Below are positions 1-5,554 of a stretch of 5,554 bases of DNA, piece after piece (positions within the stretch are counted from its first letter, which is position 1; the number at the start of each line of letters is the position of its first letter). The stretch is taken from positions 1-5,554 of IMG/VR virus record IMGVR_UViG_2778261464_000002; one strand, 5' to 3'. This DNA is from a virus (Duplodnaviria; Heunggongvirae; Uroviricota; Caudoviricetes). The notes beneath the pieces are model-generated. The model saw only the letters and a program-made list of their open reading frames with translations, was not told the DNA's origin and did not search any database. A program made the position numbers and the translations under genes.

Positions 1-445
1 CAGCGAGCTTTGCTGGCGCTCCAGCAGCTTTTGCCGCTGTGCCAATTGGCAGGAGATACCCACCAATTGTTTCACCGGCTTGCGCGTAAGGGTCTGTCGG
101 TCGATCGACAGGGCGATAAACATCATCCAAAACCTTGGGGCCACCAAGCCCTTGGCTGATTGCATTAATCAGACTTGCGCCACCCTGCAATACGTCAAAT
201 GGTATGTTTACCAGACCACGACCAGCCTGCTCTGCAATTTGCCCTGCACTTTGACCACCTGTGAGCCAATCGCCAGCTTGTTGCATCAATGATGGTTCTT
301 CACGTGCTGGTTCATTATTGGCCTGATTAACTGTTTGTTGCTGAACAGCCTGACCAGCAAAATACTCATCAATGGCGGTGCCAATATCTTCCGTGCTCGT
401 GCCATCAGGGAAGGTAAATGTCTTACCGTTTGCAGTTACTTTCAT
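1..445 (-). CDS. gp16: Ejection (DNA-transfer) protein, P22 gp16-like; N-terminal 148 codons only, 3' end beyond window
   Basis: Minus-strand frame is open from ATG 445..443 to the window edge; hand translation gives [37 protein letters not shown]... A GGTGG Shine-Dalgarno at 455..451 sits 5 nt upstream of this ATG; an in-frame ATG at 448..446 is too close to the SD. The start overlaps the gp20-like TGA stop (447..445) by 1 nt. It is the last gene in the conserved P22 order 10-26-14-7-20-16. Missing from the ORF track only because it has no stop inside the window. Confidence 0.8.
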
Positions 446-1860
446 CATTCCACCGTAAATTGAATGCCTGATTTTGAGGTATATGACCCAACCTGATTCC
501 GTGGTTCTCCTGAAGGAGTCGAATCTTGTGCTGGCTCTGCGTCAGTATTCATTGACATATACCGCTTAACGGCACTCCCCAATGATTCACCTTTTTTAAC
601 ATCCAACCCCAATATCTGACCGCCATTACGCGATTGTCCAGGGTTGCCATTCGCGCTCATCCACTCGGCTTTAAACTCATTAAACTGCGCGTTTCGTCGC
701 TCAAGGTTTGCCATTGCATCAAGCCATCTTGCGACCGTCTCAGGGTTATCCATGTCAGTTGGCGCACCCTGTCGAACGATCTCAACGTCTTTATCCGTTG
801 CGGGGCCGGGAGGTAGGAATTTAAGAACCTGACTGTTAACAAGGGCATTTTGGCGAATGCGCAAATCACGCAATGTCGTATCGCTTCCGGTAAGTTTTGC
901 GAACATGTTCTGTGCGTTACCGAACAAACCTGTCGTTGGTTTTTCTGCTCTGAACTGTTGAGCAAGCGCACTCATGGAATTGGCTGAGTTTGATGATGCT
1001 GTGGCATTGTTTACAGCCGTCTCGATGCCTTTTTCCATGTTTACTGACAGCTTAGGTGCTTCGCTAATCAACTGCTGAGCCTTTTCCTGCGCTTGCTGCA
1101 TCTTAAACCCGAACTCTTGCTGATCCAGAGCCAAGCGTTGTGCTGCGATATTGTGCCCAGTCATTGCTGACTGATAGGAAAGGTTTTGCCCTCTCGCCTG
1201 AAGTGCTTCACCAGCCTGATTGCTGCGGATTGTCTCTGCCAGCCTGCTTCGGTCAATCTCACGACCAGCCATCTTGTCCTGCAAATCCCAATACTTTTCA
1301 TGGCCTAATGCAAACTGACCATATTGTCCGATAAGTTGTGATGTTGCTTGTGGGTCTTTTTGATACATGCTGAGGAGTTGTTGTGGGTCTACCCCCTGAT
1401 TAGACAATCTGGTTGCATTGTTTCCAATCCACTTGCTAAATGCATCACCACCCATCATGGAGGCAATTTGACCGCCTGCCGCTAGATTGCCAATTTCATC
1501 ACGCTGGTCTTCGTCTGCCCACTTCATACCAGACTGAATCTTCTCTAATTGACCAGGATATTTGGTCATCAGATCTCGCACCTGCTGTCGATCACCTGAC
1601 TGGATGGCTGCCGCATATTCTTTTTGGAATGCAGCATCCACTTCCTGTTGCTTTGCGGCTTGATATGTTTGAGCGACACTACCAAGCCCCTGCAACGCCT
1701 GAAGGCCGATGTTATTGCGACCTGAGCGCTCCATTTCGTTGTTCTGGCGAATATAGGCCAACGCCTCACTTACATCACTTGCCTTTGGCGCATTTGAGTT
1801 TTGCCCACCGATACCAGCAAGAAAACCGCCTGAGTTGATTCCTTGTTGCCAAGTAGCCAT
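445..1860 (-). CDS. gp20: Ejection (DNA-transfer) protein, P22 gp20-like, 471 aa
   Basis: Complete 471-aa ORF, the same length I recall for P22 gp20. Gln/Ala/Asn-rich and largely helical-looking, consistent with ejection proteins. AGGTGG-type SD at about 1870..1865 precedes ATG 1860..1858. Position immediately after the gp7-like gene and before the gp16-like gene matches P22/Sf6 synteny. Confidence 0.88.
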
Positions 1861-1869
1861 ATTCCCACC

Positions 1870-2544
1870 TTAAAACAATGATCCAAGACCACCGATAACA
1901 CCGCCAGCAAGAGCACCAATACCAGTCCCAATAACAGGAACTGCACTACCAATCATTGCACCTGATGCGGCCCCACCAATGGCACCTGTAGCAAAACTCT
2001 GTAGGCCTGAAGGCTTATTCGCATTTGCTGCCGCTGCTGCCGCCTGCTGTTGGTACAACTGGCTGACGTTGTTAGCGTAGTTCTGCCCGGCGTTTGCCTG
2101 ACCTGTAAGAGCACCAAGGCCAATGTTTGCCAGATTGTTGTAGTTGTTCATCTGACCTGACAGCCAGTTTTGACCGAGTGTAGGTGCGATTGCTGCTAAC
2201 TGGTTTCCTGTCGCTGTAGAGCCTAATCCACCCGTTGCCTCTGCTGCTGCCAGACTCTGATAGCGCGCCTGCCCTGCAAGGTCTTTGTACTGCTGGGAGT
2301 TGTAATACTGGTTAAGCGCCTGACCTTGCCCCTGAAGAGAAGAAAGATTCTGCAACTGTGATACGTACTGCTGAGCGAGTGGCGTGAACGGTGCAAGGTT
2401 CTGCATGTTCGTCTGCCACATTTCACGCTGCAATTCGATACCCTTTTCAGTTGCGCGGGCCTGCTCTTTTGCTCCGCTATCACTGCCACCTTTGCAGTAC
2501 ACAGCTTTGCTGAGGTGCTTATTGGCAATCTGGAAAATTAACAT
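1870..2544 (-). CDS. gp7: Ejection protein, P22 gp7-like, 224 aa
   Basis: 224-aa ORF (P22 gp7 is about 229 aa by recollection). Has a Gln/Asn/Ala-rich low-complexity tract and a Gly-rich hydrophobic C-terminus (GAIGGAASGAMIGSAVPVIGTGIGALAGGVIGGLGSLF). GAGGAG SD at 2557..2552, 7 nt upstream of ATG 2544..2542. Start lies 26 nt inside the 3' end of the gp14-like gene. Confidence 0.85.
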   Translation of the reverse strand: MLIFQIANKHLSKAVYCKGGSDSGAKEQARATEKGIELQREMWQTNMQNLAPFTPLAQQYVSQLQNLSSLQGQGQALNQYYNSQQYKDLAGQARYQSLAAAEATGGLGSTATGNQLAAIAPTLGQNWLSGQMNNYNNLANIGLGALTGQANAGQNYANNVSQLYQQQAAAAAANANKPSGLQSFATGAIGGAASGAMIGSAVPVIGTGIGALAGGVIGGLGSLF

Positions 2545-2998
2545 TCTTTAGCTCCTCGTATTTTGAGCGCGGTAACTGATAAATCGTGATTCCTACAGGC
2601 TTTCCATTGCTGGTATAAGCATCATCAAGGTGACCAACACGGGTAGCGCCAAGCAAACGGATAATTGACCGTCCGTATTTCGTTGTGTCAGGAACCATGG
2701 TGATGCTGTTAAGGAATGGTGAGTTTTCGAGAAGCCATTTGCAGAATAATCGATGCCCTTGCAGTGCATATTCACCACGGAATCCGGGGTCGTACACCGC
2801 ATGGCATTCAACAACGCTATGCCAGAAGTTACGCACTTCATGAACGCCAGCCAGCACTAATCCTTCGTAGATGCCGAGGTATACCGCATCAGGCTTGATG
2901 TAGTATTTATCTCCACTGTCTACGATATTTCCCGTGTTTGCCGGGTTGTTGAGGAATTCTGCAAGCTTCACCGGATTATCGATGAGCTTTATTTCCAT
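2519..2998 (-). CDS. gp14: gp14-like virion/ejection-associated protein, about 159 aa
   Basis: ORF track gives 2519..3001 with a GTG-derived first Met. I prefer ATG at 2998..2996 because GGAG at 3007..3004 is 5 nt upstream of it and only 2 nt from the GTG. This ATG overlaps the needle gene's TGA stop (3000..2998) by 1 nt. Size and position between the gp26-like and gp7-like genes match P22 gene 14; assignment is by synteny and size, not by remembered sequence. Confidence 0.7.
   Translation of the reverse strand: MEIKLIDNPVKLAEFLNNPANTGNIVDSGDKYYIKPDAVYLGIYEGLVLAGVHEVRNFWHSVVECHAVYDPGFRGEYALQGHRLFCKWLLENSPFLNSITMVPDTTKYGRSIIRLLGATRVGHLDDAYTSNGKPVGITIYQLPRSKYEELKNVNFPDCQ
2552..2557 (-). promoter_or_regulatory. 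Shine-Dalgarno (GAGGAG) for the gp7-like gene, embedded in the gp14-like coding sequence
   Basis: Minus-strand GAGGAG at 2557..2552, 7 nt upstream of ATG 2544..2542; it lies inside the gp14-like ORF, which ends at 2519. Confidence 0.55.
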
Positions 2999-3846
2999 CA
3001 CTGCTCCGCAATGATTTTGATGGTTGTGGCAGTAAACGCCGCACCATTAGACTGAATGGTTAACGTGCTGCCATTTGTGGCAAGAAAGCCGTCTTTATCA
3101 ACGCTAAAGAACGTAGCTAACAGGATGTTGTCGGTTGTTGTCGCCGAGTTGCGACTGCTTACCAGTGTGTCAGGAACAGAGCCGGAAAAAGTTAGCTGCA
3201 TTGACCTGTTGGCGGTTCCGCTGGGCCACGTCCCGACAATCGACAGCTTGAAGAACAGGGTTTTGTTCTCGTTAAACACAACCATCTTGTTGTTAACGGT
3301 GTCGAAGAATGGTGCCAACGTGCCGGATGACGGCGTGAGCGTTTTCAGCAGGCTAACAAGGTTGGTCGGCGCTGTCGGGATAGTTACAGATACGCCAGAG
3401 TAAACAACCTCTGATTTCTTGCGAGTAGTGGCATACTCAAGAGCATCGATGCGCGTCTCATGGTCTGAAAGCGTGTTTTGAATGGCGACAACTTCATCCG
3501 TCAGATAATCAATATCGTTTTCTGCTGTCGTTAATCGCGAATCAAGGCCGACTATCGCCGCTTCTGCGTTAGTGATCCTTGTTTCGTGGTCCTGTATCTT
3601 CGCTTCAGCCGATGCCAGTCGAATTTCGTGATCAACCAGAATCACATCCTGCTCATCGTTCCTGACCTGTGCATCATAAGCGCCTTGTCCGGCCTCGTTG
3701 GCCTTGTTCGCCACGTTACCAACATCAGTACCCTGTGCGATAACGTACAGCAGATATGACTGCGAGAAGATATTGCGTGGAAGGATTGATGTATCGAGCC
3801 GTGTAGCCTGAATGATTACCGGCTCATTGAGATTCGAATCAGCCAT
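2998..3846 (-). CDS. gp26: Tail needle (cell-envelope-penetrating) protein, P22 gp26-like N-terminus and coiled coil with Sf6-type C-terminal knob, 282 aa
   Basis: N-terminus [43 protein letters not shown]...NDEQDV closely matches what I recall of the P22 gp26 N-terminal hub-binding domain. Residues about 61-138 carry heptad-like repeats ([44 protein letters not shown]...). Residues about 140-282 are Ser/Thr/Gly-rich and beta-like, and the 282-aa total matches the Sf6 knob-bearing needle rather than the 233-aa P22 needle. GGAGG at 3858..3854 is 7 nt upstream of ATG 3846..3844; the ATG at 3852 used by the ORF track is only 1 nt from the SD. Confidence 0.88.
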
Positions 3847-4384
3847 TAACATGCCTCCACGATTTACCAGACTGGATATTGTGAATCACCGTCTGACTGA
3901 CACAGTATTTTTTAGCAAGCTCTCTTTGATTAACTCCCTTTGATTTCTTTATTTCTATTACTTGCTCATATGAGAGCTTTGAAATTGGATTATTTTCTCC
4001 TTTTAAAGCCGGAAACTTCACCCTGCCTTGAGATGAGCAATGCTTCATATTCTCCTTTTGAGTGCACCACTCTAAATTAGAAGCATTATTATTTTTTGGG
4101 TTGTTATCTATGTGATTTATGAACGGCTTGCCTTCTGGGTTGGGGACGAAAGCAAGAGCGACAAGCCTATGCACAAGCCATTTTACTTTAACTCCATCAA
4201 CACTAAGTGGCAAATATAGATAACCTTTATTATTCTCGTGTTGTTTTAGCCACCGCCCCTTTCTGAGTTGCGTGCTGCCATGCGCAGCCTTAACAACACG
4301 TGAGTGAGAATATACTCGCCCATCCTCTGTTACGGCATATAAACCTTCATATCCAGGAATATCTTTTGCGTTTTCACTCAACAT
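3839..4384 (-). CDS. Free-standing HNH homing endonuclease (NUMOD4-like N-terminus, HNH_3-type core, C-terminal helix-turn-helix), 181 aa
   Basis: Residues 9-26 [18 protein letters not shown] resemble the NUMOD4 motif. Residues 72-115 [44 protein letters not shown] carry the His/Asn spacing of HNH_3-type nucleases. Residues about 136-178 ([43 protein letters not shown]) look like the HTH tail seen in I-HmuI-like enzymes. Strong AAGGAG SD at 4395..4390, 5 nt upstream of the ATG. Clearly lower GC than the flanks. Confidence 0.88.
3854..3858 (-). promoter_or_regulatory. Shine-Dalgarno (GGAGG) for the tail needle gene, embedded in the last codons of the HNH ORF
   Basis: Minus-strand GGAGG at 3858..3854, 7 nt upstream of ATG 3846..3844; it lies inside the HNH coding sequence, which ends at 3839. 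Confidence 0.6.
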
Positions 4385-4389
4385 ATCTA

Positions 4390-4395
4390 CTCCTT
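4390..4395 (-). promoter_or_regulatory. Shine-Dalgarno (AAGGAG) for the HNH endonuclease gene
   Basis: Plus-strand CTCCTT at 4390..4395 reads AAGGAG on the minus strand, 5 nt upstream of ATG 4384..4382. Confidence 0.6.
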
Positions 4396-4405
4396 TAGTT
4401 TCGAT

Positions 4406-5554
4406 TTATGTTACACGAATAGAAAGGCCTGATAATGTAACAGGACCTTTTGCAATAACTCTGAATTTAAATCCAATGAGGCGTCTAACTCGACCAACTT
4501 TTCGCCATAAAACGCGATTGTCATATACAAATGGTTTTTGTAATACGACCATTTGCTCACGACCGTAATTAATTCCATCTGTAGTTGCTGATATAAATAT
4601 TCTATCTATTCTATCACACACGCCGCCAGATGTTTCTAATTCAAGGTCATTTATTAAAACGTTATCTGCCTTTATTAAAGGAGAATATAAAATATGTTCC
4701 TGTTGCTTGTCGTACTGGCTGCTGATGTCGAATTGCAGTTTCCCGGTAACAGATTCCAGCTTATCGCCACACGTTATCTGATTTCCTTCGTAAATGAAGT
4801 CAATAGCGCGGTACACATGGTCATACAGGCCTGTTTTCAGCACACACCATTGCGGACCATTGGCGCTTGAAGATGCGTCGTACACGAGGACATGGCGCGG
4901 AAGGTGGATAATCAGCAACTCATGAGCATCAAATCGCAGCGATTCCATCACACCATCAGCCAGTTCATCAGCAGTGTAGGAGCGGAGTATTTTCTCAATG
5001 CTCGCGCTGGCGATTGGTGATACCTGACCTGATCCGATGATGTATACAGACGGCGCACCCGTTGCCGGATTGCTGATAAACGCATACGAATCAGCGAATG
5101 GCGTTTTGCAGTAGGTTCCGGCGATTCCTTTTTGCACCATCAACGATGGCTGGGCGACATACAAAGCGGCACCAACAGTGGTTGCGCCCGTCAGGGAGAA
5201 ATATTCAATCGTCGATGAGCCAAAGCAGACGATGAAGTCTCGCCATGTTCCGATGCCGATGATGCCGTCAGGCTGCGACTCGGCACGATATTGTGCGCTG
5301 TAGCGGTCAGGATGTGATTCGTCTTCAAGGTCAGTGATGAACCATGAATCAGTTCCGTCTTTTGACCACGCATAACGCCCACGTAAGCGCGTAATGTCGC
5401 GGACTGAGCCTAACTCATACTGAGTAAAACCGCTGTCTGTAGGCCAGTTTGAGACGGTTTTAACCGTGCCATCATAACGATACTCGACCAGTTGACCATT
5501 AACGCCTACCGCCTGTGATGTCCGACCATGCGCCATTGATACACGACCACTTCC
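4406..5554 (-). CDS. gp10: Tail hub protein, P22 gp10-like; 5' end probably beyond window (383 codons in window)
   Basis: Minus-strand frame is open from the TAA stop at 4406..4408 to the window edge. The track's ATG at 5536 has no convincing SD and six sense codons lie upstream of it, so it is probably an internal Met (P22 gp10 is about 472 aa by recollection). Assigned by position immediately upstream of the needle gene, whose N-terminal domain docks on gp10 in P22. The 3' roughly 300 nt are AT-rich. Confidence 0.62.
   Translation of the reverse strand, partial: GSGRVSMAHGRTSQAVGVNGQLVEYRYDGTVKTVSNWPTDSGFTQYELGSVRDITRLRGRYAWSKDGTDSWFITDLEDESHPDRYSAQYRAESQPDGIIGIGTWRDFIVCFGSSTIEYFSLTGATTVGAALYVAQPSLMVQKGIAGTYCKTPFADSYAFISNPATGAPSVYIIGSGQVSPIASASIEKILRSYTADELADGVMESLRFDAHELLIIHLPRHVLVYDASSSANGPQWCVLKTGLYDHVYRAIDFIYEGNQITCGDKLESVTGKLQFDISSQYDKQQEHILYSPLIKADNVLINDLELETSGGVCDRIDRIFISATTDGINYGREQMVVLQKPFVYDNRVLWRKVGRVRRLIGFKFRVIAKGPVTLSGLSIRVT

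What the first reader, a model, noticed from the sequence alone, without database searches (positions are those of the whole stretch)
2998..3426. Tail needle carries an Sf6-type C-terminal knob on a P22-like N-terminus and coiled coil
Residues 1-60 are near-identical in character to the P22 gp26 hub-binding domain, and the central heptad region is gp26-like. Residues about 140-282 are a Ser/Thr/Gly-rich beta-type domain absent from the 233-aa P22 needle, with a total length equal to the Sf6 knob-bearing needle. The distal needle tip is the first virion part to contact the envelope and has been implicated in triggering ejection, so a knob swap may mark host or receptor specialisation. GC is also somewhat lower in the knob-encoding part (about 45% at 3241..3300).
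Basis: partly seen in the sequence, partly recalled or inferred. Interest (0 to 1): 0.45.

Follow-up and report, generated by a model that had tools for sequence, protein, structure and literature searches.

The report
Ordinary Sf6-type phage tail needle

Summary
Window 2998..3846 (- strand) encodes a 282-aa tail needle. Nucleotides 2998..3426 encode residues 141-282, the C-terminal knob. The knob matches Pfam PF16532 (Sf6-type tail needle knob, E=1.7e-109). It is 151/152 identical to each of the two solved knob structures, Sf6 gp9 (3RWN) and prophage HS1 (4K6B). All published L-glutamate and phosphate ligand residues are kept.

The whole protein is an Sf6 gp9 orthologue, not a fresh P22/Sf6 hybrid. 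The N-terminus is 68/70 identical to Sf6 and the length is the same. Only the coiled-coil segment 71-124 is a different allele (19/54 identical to Sf6). That allele, attached to a knob, occurs in 60 of 5426 complete E. coli genomes.

The exact protein is already in NCBI as WP_097346115.1, "tail needle knob protein [Escherichia coli]".

The GC argument fails: the knob part is 50.1% GC, the gene 49.6% and the window 48.0%.

The suggestion that the knob marks host specialisation is contradicted by published experiments. P22 carrying Sf6 or HS1 knobs infects Salmonella normally, and only ejection kinetics change.

Verdict: already known, low interest. The one less ordinary feature nearby is an HNH/NUMOD4 endonuclease cassette inserted between gene 10 and the needle gene.

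The parts
2998..3846 (-). Tail needle gene (orthologue of Sf6 gene 9 and P22 gene 26), 282 aa plus stop. The true start is the ATG at 3846, not the ORF-finder start at 3852.
   Evidence: ORF list. RBS spacing. 242/282 identical to Sf6 gp9 without gaps. PHROG 1030 'tail needle knob' E=4.7e-134. The exact sequence is NCBI WP_097346115.1, 'tail needle knob protein'.
3637..3846 (-). Residues 1-70: the N-terminal domain that plugs the tail hub (helical hairpin).
   Evidence: 68/70 identical to Sf6 and HK620, 58/70 to P22. Matches PDB 8EAP_B, the P22 gp26 N-terminal 62 aa, at E=5e-28. Its plug role is described in PMC9728967.
3430..3636 (-). Residues 71-139: trimeric coiled-coil shaft. Residues 71-124 (3475..3636) are a distinct allele of the same length as in Sf6.
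   Evidence: 19/54 aa and 48% nt identity to Sf6, MB53 and DLL7555, but 54/54 to the E. coli EN-1077 prophage. The allele is present in 60 of 5426 complete E. coli genomes, and every listed match lies in a gene annotated 'tail needle knob protein'. The heptad register is unbroken. AF2 predicts a helix at 73-139, with pLDDT 84-92 for residues 81-130.
2998..3429 (-). Residues 140-282 plus stop: Sf6-type C-terminal knob (TNF-like jelly-roll trimer).
   Evidence: PF16532 E=1.7e-109. 151/152 identical to 3RWN and to 4K6B. L-glutamate ligands E146, K200, S248, D250, L255, K277 and the phosphate triad S231-R232-N233 are all present (residue list from PMC3741392). 18 nt differences but only 1 aa difference from Sf6 across the knob.
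4406..5554 (-). Context: gene 10 (tail hub, 'packaged DNA stabilization protein'), truncated at its 5' end by the window edge. The needle plugs this protein.
   Evidence: PF11134 E=2.1e-224, profile positions 94-468 of 469. Sf6, HK620 and P22 have the same gene order.
2519..3001 (-). Context: gene 14 homologue (DUF2824), immediately downstream of the needle gene as in P22 and Sf6.
   Evidence: PF11039 E=2.4e-64. Gene order.

Best explanation
Window 2998..3846 (- strand) is the tail needle gene of a P22-like (Lederbergvirus) prophage of Escherichia coli. It is an orthologue of Shigella phage Sf6 gene 9.

By homology to the solved and characterised Sf6, HS1 and P22 needles, the product should be a homotrimer with three parts. 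Residues 1 to about 70 form the helical hairpin that plugs the hexameric gp10 tail-hub channel and keeps the DNA in the head. Residues about 62-139 form an 11-heptad trimeric coiled-coil shaft. Residues 140-282 form a distal TNF-like jelly-roll knob that binds three L-glutamates at the subunit interfaces.

On infection the needle is the most distal part of the virion. It is released to open the channel, and the tip modulates how fast DNA is delivered.

Shown here: the sequence identity, domain boundaries, ligand residues, heptad register and genomic context. Inferred from the literature: trimer formation, plug function and the kinetic role.

The only departure from Sf6 gp9 is a same-length alternative allele of the shaft (residues 71-124). 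This is ordinary mosaicism within this phage group.
For: - PF16532 E=1.7e-109, and PHROG 1030 'tail needle knob' over residues 1-282 at E=4.7e-134.
- 151/152 identity to each of crystal structures 3RWN and 4K6B, and E about 1e-45 to 1e-49 against the P22 and HK620 needle structures over residues 1-144/153.
- 86% gapless identity to Sf6 gp9, concentrated in residues 1-70 and 125-282.
- All L-glutamate and phosphate ligand residues are conserved.
- The knob shows 18 nucleotide changes but 1 amino-acid change against Sf6, which indicates purifying selection.
- The heptad register is unbroken and identical in offset to Sf6 and P22.
- The gene order gp10 - needle - gp14 - gp7 - gp20 matches Sf6, P22 and HK620.
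- 1117 of 5426 complete E. coli genomes match the gene, and 315 hold at least 80% of it. All listed matches are annotated 'tail needle knob protein'.
- The exact protein is WP_097346115.1.
- The published description of this class is in PMC3741392 and PMC9728967.
Against: Nothing in the data contradicts it. Limits are:
- Trimerisation, L-glutamate binding and function were not tested and cannot be with these tools.
- The single-sequence AlphaFold model was of low confidence (mean pLDDT 55). It gives only weak independent support for a beta-rich C-terminus.
- The window is a 5.5-kb contig, so whether the prophage is intact and the gene is expressed is unknown.
Confidence: 0.96

Rival explanations
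1. The needle is a recent hybrid specific to this phage: a P22-type N-terminus and shaft newly joined to an Sf6 knob by domain shuffling, marking adaptation to a new host or receptor.
For: The gene is mosaic. Segment 71-124 is only 48% nt identical to Sf6, while the flanks are 94-96% identical. In 2013 all knob-type needles of P22-like phages came from Escherichia or Shigella phages (PMC3741392).
Against: The N-terminus is closer to Sf6 (68/70) than to P22 (58/70). The shaft allele is no closer to the P22, HK620 or UPF_BP1 shafts (26-29 identities) than to the Sf6 shaft (32 of 68). The same N-terminus, shaft and knob combination is in the EN-1077 prophage at 280/282 aa, and the shaft allele is in 60 complete E. 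coli genomes. P22 chimeras with Sf6 or HS1 knobs infect Salmonella normally. Salmonella phage S9-5 carries a knob needle.
Confidence: 0.03
2. The knob is a receptor-binding domain, for example for OmpA or OmpC, the secondary receptors of Sf6. On this reading its presence determines which outer-membrane protein triggers ejection.
For: The knob has the TNF-like fold of the adenovirus and PRD1 fibre knobs, which do bind receptors, and it sits at the most distal point of the virion (PMC3741392). Sf6 needs OmpA or OmpC as well as LPS (PMC9728967). The knob is under strong purifying selection.
Against: No direct knob-Omp interaction appears in the papers read. Knob chimeras do not change host specificity in the laboratory, and L-glutamate-site mutants appear functional. 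Later work maps Sf6 host-range expansion to the tailspike (title of PMC9400499; the paper was not read).
Confidence: 0.15
3. The region holds a different or additional gene on the opposite strand, the 115-aa ORF at 3056..3403 (+).
For: The ORF exists.
Against: It has no PHROG hit. It lies wholly antisense to a coding region under strong purifying selection, with 1 aa change in 18 nt changes. There is no Rfam family in the window. Promoter-like and terminator-like sites occur at chance frequency.
Confidence: 0.01

Closest known systems
Shigella phage Sf6 gp9 tail needle (knob structure PDB 3RWN; Bhardwaj et al. 2011, cited in PMC9728967)
   Same: Same length (282 aa) and a gapless alignment at 86% identity. 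The N-terminus is 68/70 identical and residues 131-282 are 151/152 identical. All L-glutamate and phosphate ligand residues are the same, and the gene sits in the same position after the tail-hub gene.
   Different: Shaft residues 71-124 are a different allele (19/54 identical). Residue 270 is Ala, as in HS1, not Ser. An HNH endonuclease gene separates the needle gene from gene 10, whereas in Sf6 the two genes overlap.
E. coli prophage HS1 tail needle (knob structure PDB 4K6B; Leavitt et al. 2013, PMC3741392)
   Same: The crystallised fragment is 151/152 identical, including Ala at the Sf6-270 position. The one difference, Asp for HS1 Ser at Sf6 position 134, lies in the shaft stub, so the knob proper is identical.
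   Different: The HS1 needle is 317 aa with 16 heptads in its shaft. This one has 11, as in Sf6. Phage Gally is a 317-aa example in the alignment.
E. coli prophage needles annotated 'tail needle knob protein', e.g. strain EN-1077 WP_266165394.1
   Same: 280/282 aa identical, including the shaft allele (54/54). Nucleotide identity is 96.5% over the whole gene in one piece.
   Different: EN-1077 has no HNH gene between gene 10 and the needle gene, and it has the ordinary gene 10 3' end.
P22 gp26 and HK620 gp26 tail needles (PDB 2POH, 3C9I, 5BU5)
   Same: A homologous hub-plugging N-terminus (58/70 and 68/70 identical), a trimeric heptad shaft in the same register, and the same gene position.
   Different: They are 233 aa. 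Their C-terminal tip is the unrelated P22-type domain, with no PF16532 knob.

Membership tests
Sf6-type tail needle (gp9 / 'tail needle knob protein', Pfam PF16532 Phage_tail_NK) | C-terminal knob domain homologous to Sf6 gp9 residues 140-282 | tested here: met
   PF16532 at 363.6 bits against a cut-off of 27, E=1.7e-109. 151/152 identical to 3RWN and to 4K6B.
Sf6-type tail needle (gp9 / 'tail needle knob protein', Pfam PF16532 Phage_tail_NK) | Conserved L-glutamate-contacting residues (Sf6 E146, K200, S248, D250, L255, K277) and the S-R-N phosphate triad (231-233) | tested here: met
   All nine residues are present at the same positions. The residue list comes from PMC3741392. Actual ligand binding was not tested.
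Sf6-type tail needle (gp9 / 'tail needle knob protein', Pfam PF16532 Phage_tail_NK) | TNF-like jelly-roll fold assembled as a homotrimer | not testable with these tools
   Inferred from 99% identity to two crystal structures. The single-sequence AF2 monomer was of low confidence (pLDDT 55) but shows strands across 145-281. No multimer prediction is available.
P22-like phage tail needle (gp26 family) | N-terminal hub-binding (plug) domain homologous to gp26 residues 1-60 | tested here: met
   58/70 identical to P22 and 68/70 to Sf6 and HK620. PDB 8EAP_B E=5e-28. PHROG 1219 'tail needle protein' over residues 1-146 at E=2.6e-55.
P22-like phage tail needle (gp26 family) | Continuous heptad-repeat shaft forming a trimeric coiled coil | tested here: met
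   A single register over residues 62-139 with 77% hydrophobic a/d positions (next best register 45%), at the same offset as Sf6 and P22. AF2 helix at 73-139. The oligomeric state was not tested.
P22-like phage tail needle (gp26 family) | Gene located in the late operon between the tail-hub gene 10 and gene 14, followed by the ejection-protein genes 7, 20 and 16 | tested here: met
   Pfam assignments of the neighbouring ORFs and the same order in Sf6, HK620 and P22. The one difference is an inserted HNH gene between gene 10 and the needle gene.
P22-type needle tip (gp26 residues 141-233) | C-terminal P22-type tip domain | tested here: not met
   PDB matches to the P22 and HK620 needles stop at residues 144-153. 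The C-termini do not align.

The most novel reading that the evidence does not exclude
The least ordinary reading not excluded concerns the neighbourhood, not the knob. A free-standing NUMOD4/HNH homing endonuclease sits directly upstream of the needle gene, and its stop codon overlaps the needle start. It has brought with it a low-GC replacement of the last ~340 nt of gene 10.

If this endonuclease cuts cassette-free gene 10/needle junctions, repair from a cassette-bearing phage could drive allele exchange across the tail hub/needle module. That might contribute to needle mosaicism such as the shaft allele seen here.

The knob itself is not novel on any reading.
Probability: 0.1. Interest if true: 0.35.

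Novelty: already known. Interest (0 to 1): 0.07.

Why it matters
It matters little. The needle type was crystallised in 2011 (Sf6) and 2013 (HS1). In 2013 it was found in 69 of 164 P22-like genomes, and NCBI's annotation pipeline now names it automatically. The exact protein already has a RefSeq accession.

The result is useful only as a correct annotation. This E. coli contig carries the late-operon segment of a P22-like prophage with an Sf6-type needle.

Whether the knob has a receptor-sensing or ejection-timing role is still partly unresolved in the field. This sequence adds no new handle on that question, because its knob is essentially identical to the ones already studied.

Tried and rejected
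1. Single-sequence AlphaFold2 of the 282-aa protein gave mean pLDDT 55 and pTM 0.40. That is too poor for a fold search, so none was run. Only the shaft helix was confident. An alignment-based run was not attempted, because loci-derived sequences are not accepted by that tool and 99% identity to crystal structures makes it unnecessary.

2. NCBIfam returned no model for the needle or the HNH protein.

3. An Rfam gathering-threshold scan of the whole window gave no matches.

4. A promoter and terminator scan of 2400..4500 gave counts at shuffle expectation, so nothing was usable.

5. I tested whether the divergent shaft allele derives from a P22, HK620 or UPF_BP1-type shaft. It does not: there are 26-29 identities with those shafts and 32 of 68 with Sf6. 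Short motifs such as D(I/V)DYL.DEV..IQ are shared with HK620 only locally.

6. I rejected the GC-anomaly argument for foreign origin of the knob.

7. I rejected the antisense ORF 3056..3403 as a gene.

8. A literature search for HNH endonucleases at this position in P22-like phages found only an unrelated HNH fusion in the early-left operon of epsilon34.

Full report
WHAT IS IN THE WINDOW

All substantial ORFs are on the - strand and form the late-operon segment of a P22-like phage (Pfam):
- Gene 10, the tail hub: 4406..>5554, PF11134, E=2e-224, N-terminus cut by the window edge.
- A 181-aa NUMOD4 + HNH_3 endonuclease: 3839..4384.
- The needle gene: 2998..3846.
- Gene 14 (DUF2824): 2519..3001.
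- Gene 7: 1870..2544, PF25688.
- Gene 20: 445..1860, PF16928.

The nearest DNA relatives are Escherichia Lederbergvirus phages (Louie, N7, Kapi1, HZ41), Sf6, and many E. coli prophages. An exact-sequence look-up shows the needle protein is NCBI WP_097346115.1, 'tail needle knob protein [Escherichia coli]'. It was seen on a single contig of 5554 nt, which is the window itself.

CHECKING THE OBSERVATION

The ORF finder starts the needle at 3852 (MLMADS...). GGAGG lies 7 nt upstream of the ATG at 3846 and only 1 nt from the first ATG, and all homologues start MADSNLN. The protein is therefore 282 aa, the same as Sf6 gp9. Nucleotide 3426 is residue 141, so the coordinates given (2998..3426) do delimit the C-terminal domain.

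That domain is 34% Ser+Thr+Gly, against 16% upstream. It matches Pfam PF16532 'Sf6-type phage tail needle knob' at E=1.7e-109 and PHROG 1030 'tail needle knob' at E=4.7e-134. It is 151/152 identical to each of the two crystallised knobs, Sf6 (3RWN) and HS1 (4K6B).

The six residues that contact the bound L-glutamate (E146, K200, S248, D250, L255, K277) and the S231-R232-N233 phosphate triad, as listed by Leavitt et al. 2013 (PMC3741392), are all present. Across residues 140-282 there are 18 nucleotide differences from Sf6 but one amino-acid difference, which indicates strong purifying selection.

It is clearly not met.

A single-sequence AlphaFold model was poor (pLDDT 55). It nevertheless places a confident helix at 73-139 and strands across 145-281. 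I did not run a fold search on it.

The GC remark does not hold. The knob-coding part is 50.1% GC, the gene 49.6% and the window 48.0%. The 60-nt stretch 3241..3300 is 41.7%, but a third of all 60-nt windows are at or below 45%.

WHAT KIND OF NEEDLE IT IS

The protein aligns without gaps to Sf6 gp9 at 242/282 identity. The differences are concentrated in one segment:

| Segment | Identity to Sf6 |
|---|---|
| Residues 1-70 | 68/70 aa |
| Residues 71-124 | 19/54 aa, 48% nt |
| Residues 125-139 | 13/15 aa |
| Residues 140-282 | 142/143 aa |

The N-terminus is 58/70 identical to P22 gp26 and 68/70 to HK620 gp26. It is therefore 'P22-like' only in the sense that this domain is conserved in every needle of the group (PMC9728967).

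The divergent shaft segment has the same length as in Sf6. It keeps a single heptad register over residues 62-139, with 77% hydrophobic a/d positions at the same offset as Sf6 and P22. The needle should therefore have the same 11-heptad shaft.

The shaft segment is not derived from a P22, HK620 or UPF_BP1 shaft (26-29 identities). It is 54/54 identical in the E. coli EN-1077 prophage, whose needle is 280/282 identical overall. The allele occurs in 60 of 5426 complete E. coli genomes, and every listed match lies in a gene annotated 'tail needle knob protein'. Overall, 1117 of 5426 complete E. coli genomes match the gene and 315 hold at least 80% of it.

A conserved N-terminus, a variable shaft and a near-invariant knob is exactly what Leavitt et al. 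describe for HS1: N-terminus 98%, shaft 67% and knob 99% identical to Sf6.

HOW IT MOST LIKELY WORKS

This section is inferred from homology and was not tested here. The product should trimerise. Its N-terminal helical hairpins form a quasi-six-fold plug in the hexameric gp10 hub channel and retain the DNA (PMC9728967). The coiled coil projects beyond the tailspikes, and the knob, a TNF-like jelly-roll trimer, sits at the distal tip (PMC3741392).

P22 with Sf6 residues 69-282, or with the HS1 knob, grows normally on Salmonella. Glutamate-site mutants appear functional. The HS1-knob chimera released K+ at 40-70% of the wild-type rate.

The 2013 survey found the knob only in Escherichia and Shigella phages: 69 of 164 P22-like genomes, with knobs differing by 4.9% or less. 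The current phage collection contains a Salmonella Lederbergvirus, S9-5, with a knob needle that is 63% identical overall and visibly much closer in the knob. Full-length matches at 46-85% identity also occur in phages of Klebsiella, Aeromonas and Shewanella. The host restriction has therefore loosened.

COMPARISON AND NOVELTY

Every defining feature of the Sf6-type needle that can be tested by sequence is met. Trimer formation and ligand binding can only be inferred. HK620 is a P22-type 233-aa needle. CUS-3 matches only residues 1-148. Neither is therefore a knob comparator. The feature is already known and is named automatically by annotation pipelines.

NOTICED IN PASSING

In Sf6, HK620, Gally and EN-1077, gene 10 and the needle gene overlap by one base. 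In P22 they lie three bases apart. Here a 181-aa NUMOD4/HNH endonuclease gene (40% GC) lies between them. Its stop codon overlaps the needle start.

The last ~340 nt of gene 10 (4406 to about 4745) are 34% GC. They are only 54-69% nt and 60-73% aa identical to Sf6, EN-1077, HK620 and Gally. They are 97-100% identical in the three other cassette carriers examined: phage HZ41 and the prophages of E. coli MB53 and DLL7555.

HZ41 combines the cassette with a P22-type 233-aa needle. The cassette therefore moves independently of needle type, and its downstream border is at the needle start codon.

The HNH gene is full-length in 16 of 5426 complete E. coli genomes. UPF_BP1 has a related HNH gene at a different site, between genes 4 and 10. 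This looks like a free-standing homing endonuclease with a co-transferred flank. Cleavage specificity was not tested.

VERDICT

Already known; interest is low.

Noticed in passing
window 3839..4384 (- strand): A 181-aa NUMOD4 + HNH_3 endonuclease gene (40% GC) lies between tail-hub gene 10 and the needle gene. In Sf6, HK620, Gally and EN-1077 those two genes overlap, and in P22 they lie 3 nt apart. Its stop codon overlaps the needle start by 8 nt. It is full-length in only 16 of 5426 complete E. coli genomes and is 99.4% identical in phage HZ41, which has a P22-type needle. It therefore moves independently of needle type.
   Followed up: partly
window 4406..~4745 (- strand, 3' end of gene 10): The last ~113 codons of gene 10 are 32-41% GC, against about 51% for the rest of the gene. 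They are only 54-69% nt and 60-73% aa identical to Sf6, EN-1077, HK620 and Gally. They are 97-100% identical in the other HNH-cassette carriers (HZ41, MB53, DLL7555). This looks like a flank co-transferred with the endonuclease, possibly a cleavage-resistant allele.
   Followed up: partly
L006 1051..1635 (Salmonella phage UPF_BP1): A related HNH endonuclease gene sits at a different site in the same operon, between genes 4 and 10. It is 87% nt identical to window 4245..4407, the 5' end of the HNH gene plus its upstream leader.
   Followed up: no
L010 1801..2667 (Salmonella phage S9-5): A Salmonella Typhimurium Lederbergvirus carries a 288-aa knob-bearing needle, 63% identical overall and much closer in the knob. 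The 2013 survey found no Sf6-type knob in 48 Salmonella P22-like phages (PMC3741392). In that record the needle is annotated only as 'hypothetical protein'.
   Followed up: partly
window 3475..3636 (- strand): The needle shaft allele (residues 71-124) is unrelated at the DNA level to the Sf6 shaft (48% identity) but has exactly the same length and heptad register. It is found in 60 of 5426 complete E. coli genomes. No complete E. coli genome or phage record in the collections combines this allele with the HNH cassette, and the best whole-window matches lack one or the other.
   Followed up: partly
window 1..5554: The window appears to be an entire 5554-nt contig of an E. coli draft assembly. 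The needle protein is on record from a single contig of exactly that length.
   Followed up: no
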